A DNA stretch of 64,000 nt from an uncultured Alphaproteobacteria bacterium (GTDB lineage Bacteria; Pseudomonadota; Alphaproteobacteria; Rhizobiales; Rhizobiaceae). A program made the position numbers and the translations under genes. The stretch covers positions 1,798 to 65,797 of the forward strand of contig CAWIWT010000043.1 in NCBI GenBank assembly GCA_963839725.1, given 5' to 3'. The notes beneath the pieces are model-generated. The model did not search any database, was not told where the DNA came from, and was given only the letters and a program-made list of their open reading frames with translations. Positions 2,215-53,066 of the stretch are shown here, piece by piece (positions within the stretch are counted from its first letter, which is position 1; every line of letters begins with the position of its first letter).

Positions 2215-4426
2215 GCGCGGTCGACGCTCTGAGGGCGGCCAAGGACGCCGGTGTCAGCGTCACGCTGGACGGCGGCGATCTGGTGTTGCACGCGTCCGCG
2301 GAGCCGCCGCACACTGTGCTCAGCGGGCTATCACGCCACAAGGCGGCCATTGTTGCACTCCTGCGGGGGAACGATTTATGGACCGCGCCAGCAGGCGAGC
2401 CGCGGCCGATCCCAATAAAAGAACTGATCGCCGCGGCTGTGGTCAACGGCACCACATTCTCTCTTTCTGGCGCCCATGTAAGGCTAGGTGGCACGCCCCC
2501 GCCGCCAAACATCCAGCGTGAACTGCGTGCGCGCCGCAAGGAAGTGTGGGACCACCTCGGCGGTGCGGCGCTTGACCAGCCTGCGTTAGAACTGATGGCT
2601 CACCTCGGCGTGGAAGCTGTTTTGGTGACCAACCCCGCGGAGGCTCTCGCTGCTCTTGGCAACGGCCCGCTCGGCGTCGACATCGAGACGGCCCACCGGC
2701 TGCCGCGGCCACCAGCTCGATTTACACGGCGCGGCGATCTCTCCGCTACCCAGCCCAAGTCCGATGATGAAGCAGGCCTAGACCCCCATCACGCCGAAAT
2801 TGCTACGCTGCAACTGTACGCCGGCGGCCAGCAAAGCTTTGTATTTCGAGGGGCGGCCATCACTTCGGAAGTGCGTCGGCGCGTCCTTCAGGGCAATTGC
2901 ATTGTCCACAACGCTGCATTCGAACTCGCCTTTTTTAGGCACCACTGGGGCGCCTTCCCTGTTCAATTCGAATGCACGATGCAGGCAGCGGGCCTGCTAC
3001 TCGGGGTGCACCGCAGGGGCTTGGCGGACACCGCCTACGCCTGCATGGGCGTTAAGGTGCCCAAGGAGCTCCAGCGGTCCGATTGGGGTGCGGAGGAACT
3101 CTCGGCTGGCCAGATAGCATACGCTGCTGCCGACGCCGTCCTCGCCTACCGTCTTTGGCCGCGACTTAGCGAGGGTCTAAGGACAAAACAGCGATATCGC
3201 GCCTACGAACTCCAGCGGAACGTTATTCCGGCGGTCGTAGACATGCAGCTCCGCGGTATGGGCATGGACTTTGACGAACACGCTCGCCAGGTTGAGGAAT
3301 GGGACCGAGAACTGTCACAAGCGCGGCAGACTTTTGCCAACGAGACTCAATCGGCGCCTCCGTCAAAGCCTGACGACATCCGCAAGTGGTTGGAGACTGT
3401 GCTCGATGAGGAGGAGCGGCGCGCGTGGCCAACTACGAAGACCGGCAAGCTCTCCACCGCACGCAGCGATCTAGACCACCTGGCTGACAAGCCAGGTGCG
3501 CGTCCTCTGCTCAACATTCTGGCTAAGGAGAAGCTCAGATCGACCTTCGGCGCCAAACTCCGCAAGACGGTCAACTCCGTCACAGGCCGCTTACACACAC
3601 AGTATAATATTGCAGGTGCGAAGAGTGGCCGGTTCACGTCATCACGTCCTAACCTGCAGCAGTTGCCTGACGAAGCGAGCACCGGAGTTCAAGAAATGTA
3701 TCGTCGCACGCCCCGGCTATCTGCTGATCGCTTGCGACTGGTCAGCCGTGGAACTCCGAGCGGCCGCATGGGTAGCGGGAGACGCAGCACTTGCAGATGA
3801 GCTCAACTCCGGCCGCGATTTTCACCGGCAAACCGCTGCCGCAATGGCGAGCGTACCGATCGAACAGGTGACCGACGATCAGCGCCAGGCGGCAAAGGCA
3901 GTCGCATTCGGTTCAATCTATGGGATGGGAGCCTAAAGGTCTTGTTCATGCCTTGTGGAGCGGATACCAGGTCGAAATCAGCGAAGACGAGGCCCGCCAA
4001 AAGCTTGATCGCTTCTTTGCCAAATATCGGAAACTCAGGCTGTGGTGCCGCAGCCACGCCGAAAAGTGCAGACGCGAGGGCCTGGTCCGCATCGGGTGTG
4101 GGCGCGTTGTTGAAGAACGTTGGGAGCCGGGTGGTCTAAGCTACCCGCAGATGTGTAACCTCCCGATTCAGGGTATTTGCGCCGACGCTCTGATGCGCGC
4201 GATCATCCTTGTGAACGATCGTCTGGAAGAGGCTGGAATTGGCGGCGGCTTGGTTGCCGCAGTGCACGATGAACTATTGATCGAAGTGCCGGAGGGTGAC
4301 GCGGAACGAGCTCGCGACATCCTTGAGCGGAGCATGGTGGACGCTTTCGTAGATACCTTTCCTGGGGCCCAGACCAACGGCCTCGCAGTCGCGAAGATCG
4401 GCCGAACTTGGGCCGACGTGAAATAG
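2211..4426 (+). pseudogene. Family A DNA polymerase with 3'-5' exonuclease domain and no 5'-3' nuclease; two +1 frameshifts near 3670 and 3930
   Basis: Exo motifs GVDIET, HNAAFE and YAAADA; SSRPNLQQLP; motif A DWSAVELR; motif B RQAAKAVAFGSIYG; NLPIQG; motif C VHDELL. These lie across ORFs 2082-3800, 3496-3936 and 3920-4426. ATG 2211 overlaps the helicase stop. Confidence 0.88.
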
Positions 4427-4515: not shown

Positions 4516-7299
4516 TCAGATCGCGAGCGCTTCCTCCGCTGCCTTGTCTTCTGTCCAGGCAGCGCCTTCGGCCATGAGGCTGGTGCGCTCTTCCTGGGCC
4601 AATGCCGCAGCGACGAGCGCTGACGCGCGATCGTGCGATGTCTGCTCGTTGAAGTCGCGATGGAATTCCTTGCTCGCCTGGTACCAAGCGTCAAGGTAGC
4701 CGAGCAAGCGCGCGGCGCGCTCGAACTGCCCGCGCTCGGCCGCAATCAGCGCCATGTGGTGCGTCGTCCAGGCGACGTAGTTCGACCGGCCGCCGACGGA
4801 ACGCTCGTCGCGCAAGCTCTCCTTTGCGGCCTGTTCTGCCTCATCGACTTCACCGAGCGCCAACAGGTAGCCCGCGAGATTCGAGCGGGTGAGCATTACT
4901 GCCGGCCGATCCTTGTTGTTCGTGCCAATTTCGACAGCTTCGCGGGCAATCTCCACCGCTTGTTCGGCATGGCCGGCGCCATACTCGCGCTCGGCGAGAT
5001 TGTTGAGGGCGTGGAGCAATCCGGATCGGTCGCCGAGCGCCCGATGCATCGTCGCCGCCTCGCGCAGCAGCTGTGTCCCCACCACAGAATCGCCTGCGTA
5101 CCCCGTGCACACACCTGTCAAGTCGAGGCACTCCCCGAGGTATTTGCTAGGCCCGAGCGGCTCCAGGAGCGCACGCGCCTCGCGCAGCAAGGCTTCTCCC
5201 TCGGCCGTGTCGCCGGGCCGCACAAGCGCTGCGCCGGCGCGCATGAGCGCGACCCCCAAAGCCTGCGGGTCTGAGAGGCCGCGGTAGAGGTCGGCCGCTT
5301 GGAGCGCGGCGGCGGCAGCTACAGGATGGGAGAGGCTGTCGATGTAGAAATTCTTGGCCAACCAGAGCCGTGCTGCAGTGGCCAGCGGGGTCTGTTCATC
5401 GATTTGCGCGAGCGCCGTATCGACCCATCTGATGAGCTCGGGGAAGAGCCACAGCTCCCAGAGCAGCCGCATCGAGCATCCGACCAGGTCGAGGCCGAGC
5501 GCCACATCTCCATCCGGACCGAACGCCCACTCGACAGTCGTGCGGAGATTGTCCAGTTCGGGCGCATAGATTTGGAGCCAAGCGTCGGTGGGGGCGGTCG
5601 GCCAGACTTCCCCGGCCCTGACGTAGAACGCCAGCAAGTGCTCGGCGAGCCGCCGGTGCCAGTCGCCTTCGCCACATTCCACCAGCCTCTCGCCGGCATA
5701 TTGGCGTGTCGACTCGAGCAGACGGTAACGGGTTTCGCTGCCGCTCGAATCGGCGACGACCAAGGATTTATCGACGAGCGATCCCAGCAGGTCGAAGATC
5801 TGCCACGCCTCCAGCGGAGCGCCGGCAGCGACGGCGGTGGCGCCGCCCAGCGTCCAGCCGCCGGCGAAGACCGACAGCCGCCGCAAGAGGGTCTGCTCAC
5901 TTCCCGACAGAAGGTTGTAGCTCCAGTCGATCAGTGCTTTCAGCGTCTGCTGCCGGGGCAGTGCCGTGCGGCTGCCGCCAGTCAAGATGCGGAACCGGTC
6001 GTCGAGGTGCTTCGCTAGCTCCTCCGGCTTCAGCATCTTCAGCCGCGGCGCGGCCAGCTCGATGGCGAGCGCCACGCCGTCGAGCCGTCTACAGATCTCC
6101 GCCACCGCCGGCGCATTGTCTTCAGCAACGGCAAAGCCGGCGACGGCCGCACGTGCGCGCTGGGCGAAAAGACGCACCGCGCCATAGCCTAACGCCGCCT
6201 CTGCCGTAATGCCTTCCAGCCGATCCGGAAACCCGAGGGACGGCATGCGATAGATGGCCTCACCGGTAATCGCCAGCGGCTCGCGGCTCGAGGCCAGCAG
6301 CGACATTTTCGGGCACTTGCGGATGATCGCGTCCGCAAGACTCGCGACTGCCACGACGAGATGTTCGCAATTGTCGAGGATGAGCAGCGCCTGCTTTTCT
6401 CTGAGGAGACTGACGACGGTGTCGAGGGGCTTCTGCCGGGCGCCGATCGGAAAGCCGAACAGCGCTGTGATGTTCTCCGCGATGAGCTGCGGGTCCGTCA
6501 GTGGCGCCAATTCGACCAACCAAACGCCGTCGTCATACCGATCCAGCACCTCCGCCGCGACTTGCAGCGACGTGCGGGTCTTGCCGATCCCGCCCGAGCC
6601 GACGAGCGTGACGAGCCGATTCTTATCCAGGAGCGCCTTGATCTCCGCCATTTCGTTCTCGCGGCCGATGAAGGCGGTGACCTGCTGTGGCAGGTTGTTC
6701 AAGATTGCGGCAAGCGAACGCAGGGTCGGGAATTCGCTTGGGAGGTCCGGTGTGACGAGCTGATGGATTTCCTGAGATTCGGCGAGATCCCTTAGCCGAT
6801 GCGGGCCGAGGCCGACGAGGCTCGACCCGAGTGGCAGCGATCCTCGAGAGAGTTCGGCGGCGACTGCCGAGACGAGCACCTGGCCTCCGTGGCCGGCGGC
6901 AAGCAGCCGCGCAACCCTGTTGAGCGGCTGGCCGAAATAGTCGCTGTCGCGCGCCTCGACCGCGCCCACATCTACTGCCATACGCACCTTCAGCCCGCCG
7001 ATCTCGGCGAAACCGTCCGTCGCGAGTGCGCGCTGCCCGGCTAGCGCCGCAGCAAGCGCGTCTGAGGTGTTCGAAAAGGCCGCGCAAAAGGCGTCACCCA
7101 CCGTCTTGAAGACCTGTCCGCCCGACTGCGAGATCGTCGCACGGAGGATGCTGTCGTGCCTTGCGAGTGCGATTTGCATGGCCGCCGGCGCTCGTTCCCA
7201 GCGATCCGTCGAGCCTTCGATGTCGGTAAAGAGGAATGCCAGTATTCCGCCTCTGACGGGATTGTCCGTGGGAACGGGCGAAATGCCGGCCTCAGGCAT
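4516..7299 (-). CDS. Class III adenylate/guanylate cyclase fused to an NB-ARC/STAND-type ATPase and TPR repeats
   Basis: Cyclase motifs FLFTDIEGST, KTVGDAF and DYFGQPLNRVARL; P-loop GSGGIGKT; Walker B LILDNCEHL; CRRLDGVALAIELAA; helical C-terminal repeats. Start placed at ATG 7299 (MPEAG) rather than 7440. Confidence 0.9.
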   Translation of the reverse strand: MPEAGISPVPTDNPVRGGILAFLFTDIEGSTDRWERAPAAMQIALARHDSILRATISQSGGQVFKTVGDAFCAAFSNTSDALAAALAGQRALATDGFAEIGGLKVRMAVDVGAVEARDSDYFGQPLNRVARLLAAGHGGQVLVSAVAAELSRGSLPLGSSLVGLGPHRLRDLAESQEIHQLVTPDLPSEFPTLRSLAAILNNLPQQVTAFIGRENEMAEIKALLDKNRLVTLVGSGGIGKTRTSLQVAAEVLDRYDDGVWLVELAPLTDPQLIAENITALFGFPIGARQKPLDTVVSLLREKQALLILDNCEHLVVAVASLADAIIRKCPKMSLLASSREPLAITGEAIYRMPSLGFPDRLEGITAEAALGYGAVRLFAQRARAAVAGFAVAEDNAPAVAEICRRLDGVALAIELAAPRLKMLKPEELAKHLDDRFRILTGGSRTALPRQQTLKALIDWSYNLLSGSEQTLLRRLSVFAGGWTLGGATAVAAGAPLEAWQIFDLLGSLVDKSLVVADSSGSETRYRLLESTRQYAGERLVECGEGDWHRRLAEHLLAFYVRAGEVWPTAPTDAWLQIYAPELDNLRTTVEWAFGPDGDVALGLDLVGCSMRLLWELWLFPELIRWVDTALAQIDEQTPLATAARLWLAKNFYIDSLSHPVAAAAALQAADLYRGLSDPQALGVALMRAGAALVRPGDTAEGEALLREARALLEPLGPSKYLGECLDLTGVCTGYAGDSVVGTQLLREAATMHRALGDRSGLLHALNNLAEREYGAGHAEQAVEIAREAVEIGTNNKDRPAVMLTRSNLAGYLLALGEVDEAEQAAKESLRDERSVGGRSNYVAWTTHHMALIAAERGQFERAARLLGYLDAWYQASKEFHRDFNEQTSHDRASALVAAALAQEERTSLMAEGAAWTEDKAAEEALAI

Positions 7300-7315
7300 T
7301 TGCGGAACTAAGCCC

Positions 7316-7600
7316 CTACCGGTCGATGCTGATGAAGCGCGAGGGGTGGACATCCATGACGTTCTCCTCGCATCCCTCGAGTTTCGGCGAGACGATGCTC
7401 TGGTAGCTGAAGAAAAGCAGCGGCATGATGCCGAGATCATCCACCAGCATCTTTTCGGCTTCCGCGAGGACCTTCATGCGCTCTTGCGGATTGCCTCCCG
7501 GCCGCCGCGCAGCGGATTGTCAGGGCGGTAGCCCAGCTCGGTCAGTATCCTCGTCGCTTCGTCCTCGCGCTCGATCTGCGGCATGGCGGCGTCGGATGCG
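7316..7600 (-). pseudogene. Internally deleted 3' remnant of a second oppA-like peptide-binding protein gene
   Basis: Encodes EREDEATRILTELGYRPDNPL joined directly to GGNPQERMKVLAEAEK...DVHPSRFISIDR*, paralogous to the C-terminus of 7847-9000. Confidence 0.75.
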
Positions 7601-7846
7601 CACCTTAGCACATGATAGCGGTCGACGAGGTATTGGTCAGTAGGCCCGTCAAAATGAGTTGGTCCCGTCGCCAACGAACGGCCACTTAGGGTCAAACCCT
7701 CCCGTTTCCCGGGCGACCGCGGACGTTGACTAAGCGCTCATAAGCCGACGTTAGGTTAGGCGGCCCGATCGGAAGCGATGCGCCAACAGCGGTCATGAGG
7801 CGACGCCCTCAAGGACGTTTAGCAAGACATCGGGCGGGGAATTTGA

Positions 7847-9000
7847 CTATCGGCTCACGCTGATGAAGCGCGAGGGGTGGACGTCCAGCGCGTTCTCTTC
7901 CCAGCCTGTGACCCGGGAGGAGACAATGTTGTGGAAGCTGAAGTAGAGCATCGGGATGAAGGCGACGTCGTCGATCATCACCTTCTCGGCCTCAGCCAGG
8001 AGCCGCATGCGCTCTTCCGGATTGTCGCCGGCCGCGGCAGCAGCATCCATCAGCCGCTCGAACTCCGCGCTGTCATAATGTGAGTAGTTGTTTCCGCTCG
8101 CGCGCCGCCCCAGGCCCAAGAACGTCTCGGGGTCCTTGTAATCGGCGATCCAGCCGCCAAGCCCAAGGTCGAAGTCACCGCCGTTTTCCATCATGCCGTA
8201 ATGCGTGCCGACGTCCGTGTTGAGAATGGAGGCCCGGACTCCGAGCTGGCGGAGCCCCTCCTGGATCGCCACGGCATTGCCCTGGTTGTTGTCCGACTCG
8301 TAGATGCGAAGCTCCAGCTTCAGCGGATTGTCGGGTCCATAGCCGAGCCCGGCGAGGATGGCCGCCGCCTCGTCCTCCCGCGCAAGCTGGTCCAGGCCCG
8401 CATAGTCGGCCTCGTAGGGCGTGTAGCCGCCGATGCCGGGCGGCACCATGCTGTAGGCAGGGAACATGCTGCCTCCCCACACTTTTTCGGCAAGGAAGTC
8501 GCGGTCGATCGCCATGGAGATGGCGCGGCGGACCGTCGGGTTGCTCCAGGGTTCCTTGTCGAGCTTGATCGCGAAGTAATAGGTGCCGAGATAGGCGCCG
8601 ACATGCACCTCGTCACCAAATCTCGCGCGGAGGTCCGCGAGCTGCTCGGTCGGCAGGTCGTCGTTGGAATCGAGTTCGCCCGCCTGGAAGCGCTTGATCG
8701 CGGTCGAGCTGTCCGTCGTGGGGTAGAAATTCACAGTATCGAGCCTCACACTGTCGGAGTCATGAAACTTCGGGTTCTTGACAATCCTGACGTGGTCGTT
8801 CGGCACCCATTCCGCGAGGATGAAGGCGCCGTTTGAGACGAGATTGCCGGGCTTCGTCCATTCCGCGCCGAATTCTTCCACATTGGCCCGATGCACGGGA
8901 TAGGCCGCCTGATGCTCCAGCATCTCGAGGAAATACGGCGTCGGCGCGTTGAGCGTGATCTCAAGTGTCTTCGGATCGATGGCGCGCGCGCCTATCTCTG
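7847..9000 (-). pseudogene. oppA: Oligopeptide ABC substrate-binding protein, 3' part (split by IS21)
   Basis: SBP family 5 sequence (IDPKTLEITLNAPTPYFLEML, NGAFIL, GWIADYKDP), resuming right at the IS21 end. Confidence 0.88.
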
Positions 9001-18172: not shown

Positions 18173-19735
18173 GTGACAGCGATCGATTTGCCTCAAGACA
18201 CCTCTGACCTTGATGAGAACGCGCTGCTGGACATCGTCCAACGGCAGACGATCCGGTATTTTTGGGAAGGAGCGCATCCTGTTTGCGGGCTCGCACGCGA
18301 TCGACATCTGACAACTGGCAACTCGGGGAAGAACCATCTGGTTGCGATCGGCGGGTCTGGCTTCGGCATCATGGCGATCGTCGTCGCGGTAGAGCGAGGA
18401 TGGATCCCACGTTCCGCCGCGTTGAGCCGCCTCGATCAAATGCTCGCCATGCTGGAAACCGCGCCGCGCTACCACGGCATGTTTTCGCATTTCATCGACG
18501 GCCGAACCGGTGCGACGATTCCCTTCCGAAGAAAAGACGATGGCGCTGATGTAGTCGAAACAACGTTTCTGTTTCAGGGGTTGATCTGCGCCCGCCAATA
18601 TTTCGCTCGGAACACCCCGCTGGAAGCCCGGCTTCGGAGCCGCATCGAGGTGCTGCTGGCTGAAGCAGAGTGGACCTGGTTCACACGCGGCCGTCGAAGT
18701 CTCTATTGGCATTGGAGCCCCAACCATGGCTGGGCGATGAATCTTCCGATCGAGGGATGGAATGAATGCCTGCTCTGTTTCGTATTGGCGGCGGGTTCAG
18801 AGCACCACGCGATTGATCCTGAAATCTATCACGAAGGTTTTGCGCGAGGCATCGAATTCCGCAACTTCAGCGGCCCATTGTTCTTTTCGCACTTTTCCTT
18901 CTGCGGGCTTGATCCGAATGGCCTCAGCGATAACCACGCGGACTACTGGGAACAGAATGTTGGCCACACGCGAGCGAATTACTGGCACTGCGTCCACAAT
19001 CCACATGGTCATGTCGGATACGGCCCGGACTGCTGGGGGTTGACCGCCAGCCACGGACCCAGCGGCTATGTCGCGCATTCACCGGAAAGAGACATCGGAG
19101 TCATCACACCGTCTGCTGCGCTGTCGAGCTTCCCTTACGCGCCTGTTGAAGCGTTGGACGCATTGCGCGGGTTTCTAACAAAGCCGCGCAGGCGAATCTG
19201 GGGTCGCTTCGGCTTCGTCGATTCATTTTGCGAAACGCGTGACTGGTATTCCCGAACCTATCTGGCGATCAATCAAGGGCCGATCGTCACAATGATCGAG
19301 AACCATCGCTCCGGACTTTTGTGGCGGCTGTTTATGAACGCGCCCGAGGTACGAACAGGCTTGGCGAGACTGGGTTTACTAGCCCGTACGGAGGAACCGG
19401 GCGAATGGAAACAGCTGATTGCTAGGTCGGTTCCTAATTGGACCAACTCCGGACTGCCACTGCGATCCCTCAACTATTGTGCAGCAACGAAATTGCTGCA
19501 GCTTCGTTTAGCACGATGCCGTCCATTCCGGACGTCACAACAAGGACGGCTTCGTGCGAAAAATATCAGATACTGTCGCCGACTTGCTGCGTTGCGCGCG
19601 CACCAACCACCGTCGCCAATGGCGGTCATGTGGTCCCGCTGGCCCGGACCGACATTCTTGGTGAGCAGTCGCCCTTGGCGCAGTGTCCTGCAGACATGCC
19701 GTCCTCCTCTGCCGGACGCCTCTTCATGGCGCTAA
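18173..19735 (+). CDS. Putative glucoamylase/DUF3131 (GH144-like) glycoside hydrolase, probably degenerate
   Basis: GGSGFGIMA, GADVVETTFL, GPLFFSHFSF, WGLTAS, YLAINQGP..MIENHRSGLLW. The C-terminus after about 19380 looks like read-through. Confidence 0.7.
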   Translation: MTAIDLPQDTSDLDENALLDIVQRQTIRYFWEGAHPVCGLARDRHLTTGNSGKNHLVAIGGSGFGIMAIVVAVERGWIPRSAALSRLDQMLAMLETAPRYHGMFSHFIDGRTGATIPFRRKDDGADVVETTFLFQGLICARQYFARNTPLEARLRSRIEVLLAEAEWTWFTRGRRSLYWHWSPNHGWAMNLPIEGWNECLLCFVLAAGSEHHAIDPEIYHEGFARGIEFRNFSGPLFFSHFSFCGLDPNGLSDNHADYWEQNVGHTRANYWHCVHNPHGHVGYGPDCWGLTASHGPSGYVAHSPERDIGVITPSAALSSFPYAPVEALDALRGFLTKPRRRIWGRFGFVDSFCETRDWYSRTYLAINQGPIVTMIENHRSGLLWRLFMNAPEVRTGLARLGLLARTEEPGEWKQLIARSVPNWTNSGLPLRSLNYCAATKLLQLRLARCRPFRTSQQGRLRAKNIRYCRRLAALRAHQPPSPMAVMWSRWPGPTFLVSSRPWRSVLQTCRPPLPDASSWR

Positions 19736-20192
19736 CTCCCGCTCTGTTGCCGAGGCAACGCACGCTCCCCGCTCGCGAGCGCTCCGCTCACGGCGATTTT
19801 GCTTATCATTTGTACGAAGCACTTATTATTTTGCTCCTACACGCCATTCTCGTGAGATTGCCTTCCTTGAATCGAACGCGGCACCAACTTATCGCGACGG
19901 AATACAGGACGGAACAAACTGCCGTTGGCGATATTAACGTATGCCGCTACACGGGATCGATGCGACATCCCCAATGTTGCGGTCGAGTTGGGGGAGAGCC
20001 GCGCAGCCAACACACCCCGGTTAGTGCGGCTTTTTCTTACTAGGCGCGGGCTCATCCATTGAGAACAAAATATATTTGGCATGCAAGGTCCGGCACGGAT
20101 CGGTGCTATGGTGGCTCATCGTCCATAAATTCCACGGGAAACGACGACTGAGGGCGAAGAACACGCTCTGCCCAACGGGATAGGAGCGTTCC

Positions 20193-20501
20193 ATGCCAAT
20201 CACCACCCTTTCTGCCGAATACGGCATATACAGGCCCGAAGACCTCGCGTTTCTCAAGAGCATATTTGACGAGGTTCAACGGTCGCAAAAACTTCTGGAA
20301 CCGTGGCAGGGAACAGCGCTGGCCCGCCAGATTCTCTACGCTTACAGGACAGGCGTCAGGGATCGCGACCTGTTGCTGAGGACGCTGAACGGCAACTACA
20401 CAAAGCCTCGTCGCACTATCGCTCGCGCGCAGTTGCACAAGTCCAGGCATTTTCAGTTTCCCGAAGGCGAGGCTGGGATCATCAATAGCAGCCAAATGTG
20501 A
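20193..20501 (+). CDS. Hypothetical protein
   Basis: GGAG RBS, 102-aa ORF. Confidence 0.5.
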   Translation: MPITTLSAEYGIYRPEDLAFLKSIFDEVQRSQKLLEPWQGTALARQILYAYRTGVRDRDLLLRTLNGNYTKPRRTIARAQLHKSRHFQFPEGEAGIINSSQM

Positions 20502-20677
20502 GGCTCGCCGGACTCCGCCTCGAAGCCGGGTGCACAACGAACCTTGGCCGATCGTGGCATGTAAAGCTGGTGGAATTCAGTGGTGGAGCGCGCAAATAAC
20601 GTAGCGGGCGAGAACAGGTGTCAGTCTGTTTTCGAACCTGCGTCACGTCAGCAAATTCGAAGATATGAGGTATAACA

Positions 20678-50514: not shown

Positions 50515-51059
50515 AATTGATTGAGCATCGGAGGGATTGGCTTCAACTCAACTTTTTCGTAGCGGATCAGTCTCCAACGTCGGCTTATGGCGCGCAACGT
50601 CTGCTTTTGGGCAGTGGCAAAGGCGCATTGAACGGCCGATTTGCGGCCTCGTTCGCTTGTGAGAGAGTGAGCGACCGCTATCGGCGGATAAGTTGAAAAA
50701 GTCGTTGTTGCTGTCGGTTTGAAGTCCTGATTCAGTGTTTCCGTGATCTGGAGGGCATGCCGATGATAGTGAGCGGACAGTGATGCGGGGAACGCTGTTC
50801 TGCGAGTTCAGCATCGAGGGTCATGTGCCTGCCGACCATCCGCTTCGTCGACCTGTCCGGTCTGCGCTCCCATCTGCGGCCATTCTATAGCGAGATCGGC
50901 AGGCCTTCGATCGATCCGGAACTGATGATCCGGATGCTGATCGTAGGCTACTGCTTCGGCATCCGCTCGGAGCGGCGGCTGTGCGAACAGGTCCATCTCA
51001 ATCTCGCCTATCGTTGGTTTCTTTAGGCGGGCATGTGTCAACCTCTTTCTCTGTCGGGG

Positions 51060-51225
51060 TAGAACGAAGCGGCCGGACGAGTTCAGGCTTCTTTGCGTGC
51101 TCGGCACCGACGGTGCCGGCGGACAGGATGGGTTGAGAAGGATCGAACGGCCTAGCTCTGCCTCGCGATCGGACGGCGAATGCCGAACCGTCGCAACCAG
51201 CGATACGGGCTCGTCCGACCCTCGC
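51060..51225 (-). ncRNA. Predicted bridge/seek RNA of the IS1111-type element (boundaries approximate)
   Basis: Closing stem CGGACGAG/CTCGTCCG encloses two internal loops whose strands match the target and donor junctions (see findings). Confidence 0.75.
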
Positions 51226-51295
51226 ACCCTCCCGGGCGCTCCGCTCCGCCGCGACGGCGGAACCTAAAGGTTCGATTGCTACATCGCGCTGGTCG

Positions 51296-52351
51296 CTACG
51301 CTGCGACTGCGGTGGTCGATCCGGCAGCACCTGACCAGCGGAATTCGGTGCCATCGGTCCACATTCGATGCATGATGACGGCGAGCCTGCGGGCGAGAGC
51401 CACCTTCGCGACTTTCACGTTGCCTCGCTTCGCCAGCCGCATGGCCCATGACCTCAGAGAGGACCAGGAACCGTGATGGAAAAGAACGTGAGCTGCCTGG
51501 TAAAGGGCGGTGCGGACCATCTCATCACCACAGCGGCTGATGCGGCCGTCGAAGTCTGTCTGTCCGGAGCTGTAGCGCTTCGGCGTCAAGCCGAAGTGCG
51601 CTCCGACATCTCTTGATCTGGAAAATCGCTCAGGTGCGTCGACGCCGGTACGATAGGTCAGCGCCACAACTACTCCGACGCCGGGTATCGTCATCAGCCG
51701 ACGACAAACTGGATCGCGCCGCGCCAGCTGTCGGCACATACGATCGAGGCACTCAAATGCTTCGATCATCGTCTGGCGAACGCGCAGCATAGGCTCTGTG
51801 ATCGCTGATAGGATCGGGTGATCCGCTACGAGCTCCAGGACGCGCTCCTCGAACGCCCGGCGCGTGACGATTCCGATCCGAAGCCCGAACACCTTCAGCG
51901 ACCCACGCACGGCGTTCTCGATGTCGTGCGCCTTATTCAAGAGTTGCTGGCGATTGACCAGCGCCATGCGAACTTGCTGCGCTTCCTCGCTCTTGATGTG
52001 GACCTGCCTAAACCATCCAAGTCGGAGAAGGTGAGCGATACCTCGCGCGTCGTTGCGGTCAGTCTTGTTCCTCATCGCGCTGAGACCTGCCTTCACATGC
52101 CGACATTCGAGACAGATTGCTGGATATCCAGCTTCTCGCAGCGCGCTATAAATCCATGCCGACGTTGGGCCAGCTTCCAAGCCGACGCGCTTGAAAGGTT
52201 GACCGAACCTCCTCAGCAGATCCGTGATAACCGTCGGCTCGGCTTCTACCTTCCGTTCGAGCAAGACGTCTCCGGTGTCATTGACGATGCAGACGTTCAC
52301 CGTATCCAGTGACACATCCAGGCCAGCAAAATAGTCCATCATCCTCTCCAT
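51296..52351 (-). CDS. IS110-family DEDD recombinase/transposase, intact
   Basis: GLDVS, GLEAG, KTDRNDA (DEDD); FGLTPKRYSSG (Tnp-domain serine); ISRCGD. Confidence 0.95.
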   Translation of the reverse strand: MERMMDYFAGLDVSLDTVNVCIVNDTGDVLLERKVEAEPTVITDLLRRFGQPFKRVGLEAGPTSAWIYSALREAGYPAICLECRHVKAGLSAMRNKTDRNDARGIAHLLRLGWFRQVHIKSEEAQQVRMALVNRQQLLNKAHDIENAVRGSLKVFGLRIGIVTRRAFEERVLELVADHPILSAITEPMLRVRQTMIEAFECLDRMCRQLARRDPVCRRLMTIPGVGVVVALTYRTGVDAPERFSRSRDVGAHFGLTPKRYSSGQTDFDGRISRCGDEMVRTALYQAAHVLFHHGSWSSLRSWAMRLAKRGNVKVAKVALARRLAVIMHRMWTDGTEFRWSGAAGSTTAVAA

Positions 52352-53066
52352 GGCAGATGTTGCGGTTCAAGTCGCACAGTGCAGTCTCGCCCCAGCGCGA
52401 CCGCCCGCCTACTCCATTCTGCCGGCACGGGCTGGAAGGCGATGTGCCTGACCACTCGACCTTCTCGAAGAATCGGCATGGCCGCTTCCGCGATGGCGAT
52501 CTACTGCGCGAGCTCGCTGCTGTCCGAACGCGCCCGCCCGCAAGATCTTGCACTCCGTCCACGAAGGTGCGCGTGACATGGCCCGCGATATCGCCACCAC
52601 CGACGCCTACGTCACTTTCCGACGGGAGCGAAAGAAGGTCGAGATGCTGTTTGCGCATCTCAAGCGCATCCTGAAGCTCGGCCGCCTGCGACTACGAAGA
52701 CCTAACAGCGCCCGAGACGAGTTCCATCTGGCAGCCACAGCTCAAACCTCCGCAAATTCGCAAAAATCATTCCGGTCCCAATAGCGAACCCGGCATGAGA
52801 AGGGCCGCGCATCGACGCGCCCAAAATCGCCGACCCAATCCCGCAACCACGCGCGCCGGCTATTTCGGCTGTGTGGGACTTGGCAACTGCCTCTCGCGCG
52901 TCCTGAGTCATCTCTGTGGCGCTGAGGGCCATTCTAGGCGTGGACAGCAGCGCGAAGCTTGTTCGAACTGAACTCTATCGAAGGCTGAGCCAATTGTGTT
53001 TGCCGACCGGACCGAAAAAGTGTTCAAGTTGGTTGGCGGGGGCGATTAAATCGTCGTGGAGAAAAA

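What the first reader, a model, noticed from the sequence alone, without database searches (positions are those of the whole stretch)
51008..52430. An IS apparently programmed to attack the conserved Y-R-W-F-C codons of IS1182 transposases
Seen: the insertion splits the IS1182 frame exactly at ...LAYRWF | CRHGLEGDVPDHSTFS. The guide TATCGCTGGTT reads TAT CGC TGG TT (Y-R-W-F with a CGC codon), while this particular target has CGT. Inference: the guide matches the family consensus rather than this copy, so the element may be a specialised parasite that uses another IS family as a renewable safe landing site. The left junction has one more T than a clean recombination predicts (TGGTTTCT versus TGGTTCT).
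Basis: partly seen in the sequence, partly recalled or inferred. Interest (0 to 1): 0.65.

Follow-up and report, generated by a model that had tools for sequence, protein, structure and literature searches.

The report
RNA-guided jumping gene that targets IS1182
A small RNA-guided jumping gene (IS1111 type) carries a guide RNA matching the Tyr-Arg-Trp-Phe-Cys codons of another jumping gene's transposase (IS1182), and its relatives in 17 other assemblies sit at that same codon, so it is a real "parasite of a parasite", built on an already known mechanism.

Summary
A 1,399-bp IS110-family element of the IS1111 type lies at 51020-52418 on the minus strand. It splits a decayed IS1182 transposase gene exactly at AYRWF|C. 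Its 3' non-coding region encodes a bridge/seek RNA with compensatory base-pair support.

The target loop holds (U)AUCGCUGGUU and GGCAGAG. Together these read about 16 contiguous bases of the IS1182 Y-R-W-F-C codons.

- 23 relatives from 17 assemblies sit at the same codon, in the same antisense orientation.
- Near-identical elements lie in IS1182 copies whose flanks are only 65-90% identical, so the insertions are independent.
- About a third of IS1182 copies are occupied in two genomes.
- One relative sits in a non-IS1182 intergenic site that carries the same 16-mer.
- More distant relatives keep the RNA scaffold but carry different guides, each matching its own flank.

The "extra T" is not an error. 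Every relative has TGGTT|TCTTTAGG. The real oddity is one missing base at the other junction (52418/52419).

This copy is single in its genome although 11 perfect empty IS1182 targets exist there, so it may be crippled.

IS1111-type elements that target other mobile elements are already known, so this is a new member of a known kind.

The parts
50683..51019 (+). Left part of the decayed IS1182 copy. It holds the left-end repeat (GTTGAAAAAGTCG at 50692-50704), a degenerate leader and start, and the N-terminal DUF772 coding remnant 50823-51019 ending ...NLAYRWF.
   Evidence: The same left-end motif stands in 16 other IS1182 copies of the genome.
51009..51019 (+). Left target half TATCGTTGGTT (Tyr-Arg-Trp-Ph.). 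It matches the A-guide at 10 of 11 bases, with C/T at the Arg wobble. The last TT is the inferred target core.
51020..52418 (-). The inserted IS1111-type (IS110 family) element, 1,399 bp, antisense to IS1182.
   Evidence: Boundaries come from 23 relatives and from empty IS1182 sites, which read TGGTT|CTGCC.
51020..51032 (-). End distal to the transposase gene (RE): 4-nt terminal extension AAGA (51023-51020) and subterminal inverted repeat GCCCGCCTA (51032-51024).
   Evidence: These columns are invariant in 22 aligned copies.
51036..51041 (-). Conserved TTGACA hexamer near the RE end. It is a candidate -35 box of a promoter completed only in the circular form, as shown for ISEc11. No convincing -10 was found.
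   Evidence: PMC11187229.
51069..51239 (-). Bridge/seek RNA scaffold. An outer stem (51239-51224 with about 51084-51069) encloses the target-loop arm and a multiloop that holds the donor-binding segments.
   Evidence: 97.3% of cells are paired; 16 pairs carry compensatory changes against 6.4 +/- 1.7 in shuffles (0 of 500); slid controls give 31-50% paired.
51195..51205 (-). A-guide (left target guide) UAUCGCUGGUU, on the 5' side of the target loop. It has the same sequence as the IS1182 sense strand, so it pairs with the antisense strand.
   Evidence: It is (C/U)AUCG(C/U)UGGUU in all but one of the tabulated relatives (L069 has CAUCCUUGGUU).
51155..51162 (-). B-guide (right target guide) GGCAGAGC, on the 3' side of the target loop. 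Its reverse complement CTCTGCC matches the donor core CT plus the right target half CTGCC. It can pair with the empty target TTCTGCC through one G-T wobble.
   Evidence: It covaries with the target: CTTTGCC in L055, L056, L063 and L085, and CTTTGCG in L064.
51126..51132 (-). 5' donor-binding segment CCCAUCC. CCAUC equals the element's transposase-proximal end CCATC.
   Evidence: The match is short (5 nt), so this assignment is an inference.
51088..51094 (-). 3' donor-binding segment AAAGAAG. It is the reverse complement of CTTCTTT, which is the predicted circle junction ...CAT-CT|TCTTT...
   Evidence: It is invariant in 22 copies. The pairing is an inference.
51296..52351 (-). Transposase gene, 351 aa and intact. 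It has a DEDD/RuvC-like N-terminal domain plus the Transposase_20 domain, and carries the motif GLTPKRYSSG (GL-P----SG).
   Evidence: 82-83% aa identity over residues 2-351 to the best relatives.
52403..52418 (-). Transposase-proximal end (LE): subterminal inverted repeat TAGGCGGGC (52411-52403) and terminal extension AATGGAG (52418-52412). Every relative that could be read at this end has AGATGGxG here (AGATGGAG in most), so this copy lacks one base at the very end.
52419..52784 (+). Right part of the decayed IS1182 copy. It holds the right target half CTGCCGG (52419-52425), the frame CRHGLEGDVPDHSTFS..., and then, after an internal deletion of about residues 142-375, a C-terminal DDE fragment (52548-52784).

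Best explanation
The insert is an IS1111-type member of the IS110 family of RNA-guided insertion sequences.

How it works: the transposase gene and the 275-nt region downstream of it are probably transcribed together. That region folds into a bridge/seek RNA. Its target loop carries two guides. The A-guide (U)AUCGCUGGUU pairs with the antisense strand of IS1182 DNA. The B-guide GGCAGAG pairs with the sense strand. Together they read ATCGCTGG-TT-CTGCC, the Tyr-Arg-Trp-Phe-Cys codons of the DUF772 domain of IS1182 transposases. A second pair of segments (CCAUC and AAAGAAG) in a multiloop matches the element's own joined ends, CTCCAT-CT-TCTTTAGG. The recombinase then inserts the circular element in one orientation, without target duplication, and this breaks the IS1182 transposase gene.

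Why IS1182: selection on the IS1182 protein keeps these codons, and IS1182 keeps copying itself. The site is therefore repeated, dispensable to the host and renewed. The clade is a specialised hyperparasite of IS1182 in Alphaproteobacteria.

Shown here: family membership, the RNA structure, guide-to-flank complementarity and covariation, and site fidelity in 23 relatives with evidence of independent insertion.

Inferred: the exchange register (target core TT, donor core CT, each junction keeping the core of its left partner); the donor-loop assignment; co-transcription of the RNA with the transposase; and that this copy, which lacks one terminal base and sits in a mismatched, decayed target, is now poorly mobile or immobile.
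For: Family: NF033542 1.7e-71, PF01548 and PF02371. The long non-coding region lies downstream of the transposase gene, there are 9-bp subterminal inverted repeats, and the GL-P----SG motif is present.

RNA: across 22 aligned copies, 47 pairs are 97.3% paired. 16 pairs carry compensatory changes against 6.4 in shuffles (0 of 500). Slid controls give 31-50% paired.

Guides: the A-guide matches the left flank at 10 of 10 bases in 13 of the 24 other copies tabulated and with 1-2 mismatches in 10 more; L057, whose flanks are unrelated, has 4. The B-guide covaries with the Phe codon (TTC/TTT) and, in L064, with two target changes.

Site fidelity: 23 relatives from 17 assemblies have the junctions TGGTT|TCTTTAGG and CTCCATCT|CTG inside IS1182, all antisense.

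Independent insertions: elements 96-99% identical lie in flanks 65-90% identical. Empty and occupied IS1182 copies share genomes.

Sequence is what is recognised, not IS1182 context: L065 lies in an intergenic non-IS1182 site that has TATCGCTGGTTCTGCA.

Natural reprogramming: relatives at 50-57% aa identity keep the scaffold, but their loop-1 segment differs and equals the reverse complement of their own right flank. These are CCTTTGTGCTT, TAGGGCCTT, AATGCACC and TATCTTGCC.

Mechanistic precedent: seekRNA and bridge RNA in IS1111-type elements, including donor-binding bases in a multiloop (PMC11187229, PMC11208160).
Against: Nothing was tested experimentally.

The 5' donor segment matches only 5 nt.

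The sum of the terminal extensions (8+4, or 7+5) is 2 nt more than the 7+3 described for IS1111 elements.

A target core (TT) that differs from the donor core (CT) is disfavoured in IS621 experiments.

The guide does not covary with the Arg wobble base: CGC and CGU guides both sit at CGC and CGT targets.

This copy has not spread to any of the 11 perfect empty targets in its own genome.

Rfam has no matching family.

Some hosts are MAG bins, so taxon labels are uncertain and some loci may be redundant.
Confidence: 0.85

Rival explanations
1. There is no targeting. One ancestral IS1182::IS110 composite was copied, by IS1182 transposition in trans or by horizontal transfer, so the shared position is inherited and not chosen each time.
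For: Some pairs have both element and flanks nearly identical, for example L055/L085 and L050/L052. Element identity and flank identity correlate weakly (r = 0.44). Several hosts are plasmids or island-like regions rich in insertion sequences.
Against: Elements 96-99% identical lie in IS1182 copies with 65-90% flank identity (L050/L053, L050/L054, L068/L070). Empty sites of the same sequence occur in the same genomes. L065 carries the element at a non-IS1182 site with the same 16-mer. The guide is complementary to the flanks, covaries with them, and is reprogrammed in distant relatives.
Confidence: 0.04
2. The transposase protein, or an interaction with the IS1182 machinery, recognises the site. 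The RNA match would then be incidental.
For: The Arg wobble base does not covary with the guide, and 1-2 mismatches are common. Protein contacts with the subterminal repeats are likely in IS1111 elements.
Against: The two conserved loop segments together read about 16 contiguous target bases. The B-guide shows compensatory changes. Four distant lineages with the same scaffold have loop-1 sequences equal to their own flanks. The seekRNA was shown to be essential and programmable in IS1111 elements (PMC11187229).
Confidence: 0.05
3. The window's copy is a dead relic and not an element presently 'attacking' IS1182. It was inserted long ago into a copy that has since decayed, and it lost mobility through the missing terminal base and the flank mismatch.
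For: It is a single copy although 11 perfect empty targets exist in the genome. One base is missing at the transposase-proximal junction compared with all relatives. The flank differs from the guide (CGT against CGC). The host IS1182 has lost residues about 142-375. In ISEc11, changes to the flanking target bases abolish circle formation (PMC11187229).
Against: The transposase frame and all guide and scaffold positions are intact. A single copy could equally mean recent arrival or a low transposition rate. The missing base could be an assembly error, and reads could not be checked. This rival concerns only this copy and is compatible with the best explanation for the clade.
Confidence: 0.5
4. 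The extra T at the left junction is a sequencing or assembly error, or the scar of an imprecise event.
For: It lies in a T run (TTT), where homopolymer errors occur.
Against: The same TGGTT|TCTTTAGG junction occurs in all 23 relatives from 17 assemblies made with different technologies. Removing TCTTTAGG...CTCCATCT restores the IS1182 frame exactly.
Confidence: 0.01

Closest known systems
IS1383 of Pseudomonas putida H, which integrates specifically into the inverted repeats of IS1384 (Muller, Lauf & Herrmann 2001, as cited in PMC11208160)
   Same: It is an IS110/IS1111-family element whose specific target lies in another insertion sequence, so the host element serves as the landing site.
   Different: Its target is the non-coding terminal repeat of one IS in one strain. 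Here the target is a protein-coding motif of the transposase, conserved across an IS family and across orders of Alphaproteobacteria, and insertion destroys the host's transposase gene.
[quoted passage not shown]
   Same: They have subterminal inverted repeats with short asymmetric terminal extensions. They insert in one orientation at one position without target duplication. Their target belongs to another mobile element family.
   Different: Their target is a transposase-binding DNA repeat, not codons. Their extensions are 7 and 3 bp, against 8+4 (or 7+5) here.
ISEc11, ISKpn4 and ISPa11 with their seekRNA (Siddiquee et al. 2024, PMC11187229)
   Same: The non-coding region lies downstream of the transposase gene. 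Two short RNA segments are complementary to the two target strands, with the top-strand complement first. The GL-P----S(t)G motif is present. A -35 box sits near the right end.
   Different: They have different targets (a short linear site, attC, REP). The RNA here has not been observed experimentally.
IS621 bridge RNA (Durrant et al. 2024, PMC11208160; Hiraizumi et al. 2024, PMC11208158)
   Same: It uses four guides: left and right, for target and for donor. The left guides pair with the bottom strand and the right guides with the top strand, overlapping at a 2-nt core. The donor core is CT.
   Different: The IS621 RNA is encoded upstream, in the left end. Its two loops are separate stem-loops. 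Target and donor share the same CT core. Here the RNA is downstream, the donor segments lie in a multiloop, and the target core appears to be TT against a donor CT.

Membership tests
IS110 family (RNA-guided DEDD transposases) | A single ORF with an N-terminal DEDD/RuvC-like domain (PF01548) and a C-terminal Transposase_20 domain (PF02371). | tested here: met
   PF01548 2.8e-18, PF02371 1.6e-20. NF033542 241 bits against a cut-off of 140.
IS1111 group | The long non-coding region lies downstream of the transposase gene. | tested here: met
   275 nt downstream (51295-51021) against 67 nt upstream (52418-52352).
IS1111 group | Subterminal inverted repeats (7-17 bp). | tested here: met
   TAGGCGGGC (52411-52403) and GCCCGCCTA (51032-51024), 9 bp and perfect, conserved in relatives.
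IS1111 group | Asymmetric terminal extensions of 7 bp (left) and 3 bp (right), occasionally 6 and 3. | tested here: not met
   Relatives have 8+4 (or 7+5, given one ambiguous base). The window copy has 7+4. The sum is 1-2 nt larger than described (PMC11187229). The asymmetry is as described, but the lengths differ.
IS1111 group | The GL-P----S(t)G motif in the C-terminal domain. | tested here: met
   GLTPKRYSSG in the translated ORF.
IS1111 group | Insertion at one specific sequence, in one orientation, without target duplication. | tested here: met
   23 relatives have the same junctions and orientation. An empty site plus the element reproduces an occupied site exactly.
seekRNA / bridge RNA systems | A structured non-coding RNA with compensatory support. 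| tested here: met
   16 compensatory pairs against 6.4 in shuffles, 0 of 500.
seekRNA / bridge RNA systems | Loop segments are complementary to both strands of the target, and they change when the target changes. | tested here: met
seekRNA / bridge RNA systems | In the IS1111 type, the top-strand complement comes before the bottom-strand complement. | tested here: met
   [quoted passage not shown] The B-guide (51162-51155) equals the top strand of the left flank, so it is complementary to the bottom strand (PMC11187229).
seekRNA / bridge RNA systems | The RNA is made, binds the transposase and is required for transposition. | not testable with these tools
No assay was possible.
IS621-like bridge recombination | Target and donor share an identical core dinucleotide. 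| tested here: not met
   The junctions imply target TGG-TT-CTG and donor CAT-CT-TCT. All relatives keep TT at the left junction and CT at the right. The register is inferred, not measured.
Host element: IS1182 family | A transposase with an N-terminal DUF772 domain and a C-terminal DDE domain that matches the NCBIfam IS1182 model. | tested here: met
   for the window remnant (it scores below the cut-off because it is truncated). The intact 471-aa copy at G000 C7 was used as query and matches both flanks of the relatives.

The most novel reading that the evidence does not exclude
This clade is an undescribed lineage of IS1111-type elements specialised as hyperparasites of IS1182. It uses a protein-constrained codon string as its address.

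It also recombines a target core (TT) with a non-identical donor core (CT) as a matter of course. Every junction keeps the core of its left partner, and the RNA G opposite core position 1 can pair with either C or T. That would be natural evidence that exchange in this branch is decided by one strand, or is not staggered. It would also mean that core identity is not a general rule of bridge recombination.
Probability: 0.35. Interest if true: 0.6.

Novelty: new member of a known kind. Interest (0 to 1): 0.45.

Why it matters
It is a clean natural case in which an RNA-guided insertion sequence uses the coding sequence of another IS family's transposase as its address. The target is kept constant by selection on the victim's protein, is multiplied by the victim itself, and costs the host cell nothing.

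In two genomes about a third of IS1182 copies are knocked out this way, so such elements may limit IS1182 load.

The clade supplies 23 natural insertion events with guide and target variants: a wobble-position mismatch that is tolerated, compensatory changes in the right guide, and one off-family hit. It also shows an apparent TT/CT core mismatch. These are free data on mismatch tolerance and exchange register for people engineering IS1111-type recombinases.

For annotation, these composite loci should be read as one IS nested in another, and not as two broken genes.

Tried and rejected
Rfam (evalue mode): only a sub-threshold skipping-rope hit inside the coding region. No bridge RNA family matched.

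Promoter and terminator scan: nothing in the integrated state. A junction promoter could not be confirmed, because only the TTGACA -35-like box is conserved.

Neither the missing base at 52418/52419 nor expression of the RNA could be checked.

A TT core shared by target and donor: it fits only the window copy and is rejected by the 23 relatives, which have CAT-CT-CTG.

RNAalifold paired the two target guides with each other. I treated this as an artefact of their overlapping complementarity and removed those pairs before counting.

Frameshifts close to the target site in uninterrupted IS1182 copies (G000 C35 and C4, G061 C30) were considered as excision footprints. They lie at different positions on either side of the site, so I read them as ordinary decay.

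Literature: no paper in the library links IS1111/IS110 elements to IS1182 as a target. The guide and end sequences are absent from the supplements of the seekRNA paper, and the supplements of the bridge RNA paper gave only unrelated chance matches to the short search strings. ISfinder itself could not be consulted, so named members of this clade may exist.

Relatives of the second element (see Noticed in passing) were checked for IS1182 flanks. None of 80 has them, so IS1182 targeting by that lineage is local.
Full report
WHAT IS THERE

The + strand carries a decayed IS1182 copy. Its left-end motif GTTGAAAAAGTCG is at 50692. Its DUF772 frame 50823-51019 ends ...NLAYRWF. The frame resumes at 52419 with CRHGLEGDVPDHSTFSKNRHGRF, and a C-terminal DDE fragment follows at 52548-52784. 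The joined protein hits DUF772 (3.4e-26) and the NCBIfam IS1182 model (3.2e-31). Residues about 142-375 are deleted.

Between the two halves lies a 1,399-bp element at 51020-52418 on the minus strand. It encodes an intact 351-aa IS110-family 'RNA-guided transposase' at 52351..51296 (NF033542 1.7e-71; PF01548 + PF02371). The long non-coding region (275 nt) lies downstream of the gene. There are 9-bp subterminal inverted repeats (TAGGCGGGC and GCCCGCCTA). The protein carries GLTPKRYSSG. These are the hallmarks of the IS1111 group (PMC11187229).

A scan of one genome per species found 251 relatives, of which the best 80 were kept. I searched them with tblastn, using an intact IS1182 transposase from the window's own genome as query. 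In essentially all relatives above about 64% aa identity, the IS1182 N-terminus (residues 1 to about 103) lies downstream of the element and the rest lies upstream, on the opposite strand.

At base level, 22 of these loci plus a Bosea vaviloviae plasmid copy (85% nt identity) read, in IS1182 sense:

...GCN TAY CGN TGG TT | TCTTTAGG(C/T)GGGCAT ... element ... GCCCGCCTACTCCATCT | CTG YNN

. They come from 17 assemblies. These include Roseovarius, Poseidonocella, an Amaricoccus plasmid, and MAGs labelled Methyloceanibacter, Rhodomicrobium and Stellaceae.

Relatives at 57% identity or less are not in IS1182.

INDEPENDENT INSERTIONS, NOT ONE INHERITED COMPOSITE

- Elements 96-99% identical sit in IS1182 copies whose 250-bp flanks are only 65-90% identical, for example L050/L053, L050/L054 and L068/L070.
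- In two MAGs with four element copies each, about 7 uninterrupted and 4-5 interrupted IS1182 copies coexist. The uninterrupted ones read TATCGCTGGTT|CTG....
- L065 carries the element in an intergenic, non-IS1182 site that happens to contain TATCGCTGGTTCTGCA. So the nucleotide string is what is recognised, not IS1182 as such.
- L057 has unrelated flanks on both sides and is unexplained. It may be a rearrangement.

THE RNA

An alignment of 22 distinct 3' regions gives a consensus fold. After I removed a spurious guide-to-guide pairing, it keeps 47 pairs in 5 helices. Of the cells, 97.3% are paired. 16 pairs carry compensatory changes against 6.4 +/- 1.7 in shuffles (0 of 500). Slid controls give 31-50% paired.

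An outer stem encloses two things:
(i) an arm whose internal loop carries the A-guide (C/U)AUCG(C/U)UGGUU on its 5' side (window 51205-51195) and the B-guide GGCA(G/A)AGC on its 3' side (51162-51155), around a variable, covarying hairpin;
(ii) a multiloop with the invariant segments CCCAUCC (51132-51126) and AAAGAAG (51094-51088), around a second covarying hairpin.

The A-guide equals the IS1182 sense strand ATCGCTGGTT. The reverse complement of the B-guide, CTCTGCC, equals CT plus the right half CTGCC. It covaries with the target: CTTTGCC where the Phe codon is TTT (L055, L056, L063, L085), and CTTTGCG in L064, where the target reads TTTGCG.

AAAGAAG is the reverse complement of CTTCTTT, which is the predicted joint of the element's two ends (CAT-CT|TCTTT). 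CCAUC equals the other end, CCATC.

This is the four-guide logic of bridge RNAs. The donor segments sit in a multiloop, as noted for many IS1111 elements (PMC11208160). The guide order is the one reported for IS1111 seekRNAs (PMC11187229).

Rfam has no matching model.

NATURAL REPROGRAMMING

A profile of the scaffold also finds relatives at 50-57% aa identity. In four such lineages the loop-1 5' segment is different, and each equals the reverse complement of its own right flank:
- L075: CCTTTGTGCTT
- L077: TAGGGCCTT
- L080: AATGCACC
- L086-L091: TATCTTGCC
. This is the strongest comparative evidence that loop 1 sets the target.

THE 'EXTRA T'

Empty IS1182 sites read TGGTTCTGCC. Occupied sites are that sequence plus TCTTTAGG...CTCCATCT, with no duplication. 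The T is therefore the first base of the element in every copy.

The register that fits all 23 relatives is target TGG-TT-CTG and donor CAT-CT-TCT. The left junction keeps TT and the right junction keeps CT. The RNA G opposite core position 1, in both right-hand guides, can pair with C (donor) or wobble with T (target). This register is my inference.

A second IS1111-type element in the same genome shows the plain case, with a CT core in both target and donor. That supports reading CT as the donor core of this sub-lineage.

A core that differs between target and donor is disfavoured in IS621 (PMC11208160). If real, it suggests that one strand decides the outcome. That is in line with recent single-strand and copy-and-paste proposals (bioRxiv 10.64898/2026.08.31.748434).

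WHAT IS ODD ABOUT THIS COPY

- The transposase-proximal junction reads CTCCAT-T-CTGCC instead of CTCCAT-CT-CTGCC. The element's last-but-one base is missing.
- The left flank has CGT where the guide has CGC. The same C/T disagreement occurs in both directions among relatives. So either it is tolerated or it arises after insertion.
- The element is single-copy in a genome with 11 exact, empty ATCGCTGGTTCTG sites, all in IS1182.
- The host IS1182 copy is deeply decayed.

Flanking target bases are needed for circle formation in ISEc11 (PMC11187229). I therefore think it about even that this copy is now immobile. The reads that could confirm the missing base were not available.

COMPARISON WITH WHAT IS KNOWN

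IS1111-type elements that live in other mobile elements are known: IS1383 in the inverted repeats of IS1384, IS4321/IS5075 in the Tn21-family repeats, and others in attC and REP sites. RNA guidance was shown in 2024 (PMC11187229, PMC11208160).

I found no report of an IS1111/IS110 element aimed at IS1182 or at a transposase coding motif. ISfinder could not be searched.

The mechanism is the known one. The new points are the target class (codons held by protein selection, shared across orders) and the possible core mismatch. I file it as a new member of a known kind.

Noticed in passing
G000 contigs C19 (about 51530-52960), C20 (about 6570-8000), C4 (about 19105-20550), C18 (about 145240-146680), C46 (about 233420-234855); outside the window: There is a second IS1111-type element in the genome. 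Its transposase has 345 aa and is 49% identical to the one in the finding. In 4 of its 5 copies it sits in the 5' leader of IS1182, between the left-end repeat and the ATG, antisense to IS1182. Its RNA has the same scaffold, with guides GAAUCAGAU and UUGAAGCCCU that match that leader site, and a CT core in both target and donor. None of 80 relatives in other genomes lies in IS1182. So two lineages in this one genome are aimed at two different IS1182 sites.
   Followed up: partly
L055, L056, L085 (about 2818-3028), L063 (about 2822-2936), L054 (about 2822-3389): Some relatives carry a tandem partial duplication of the 3' non-coding region. This gives two right ends, with the repeat starting just before the A-guide or at the donor hairpin. 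It resembles the tandem non-coding expansions described in bioRxiv 10.64898/2026.08.14.744561.
   Followed up: no
L057 (CAWGBF010000008.1): This element copy is 99.9% identical to L054, but both flanks are unrelated to IS1182 and to the guides. The transposase-proximal junction also lacks the usual TCT. It may be a rearrangement or an off-target event.
   Followed up: no
G000 C35:391005, C4:20838; G061 C30:24464-24740: Three uninterrupted IS1182 copies have a small frameshifting indel within about 12 nt of the insertion point. The positions differ and lie on either side of it. I read this as ordinary decay, but excision scars or resistance mutations are not excluded.
   Followed up: partly
That would be a second 'parasite of a parasite' in this IS-rich region. 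I did not examine it.
   Followed up: no
window 51245-51261 (minus strand): An invariant hairpin, UCCGCC-loop-GGCGGA, lies between the transposase stop codon and the RNA scaffold in all 22 aligned copies. Its role is unknown; it could be a processing site, a terminator-like element or a protein-binding site.
   Followed up: no
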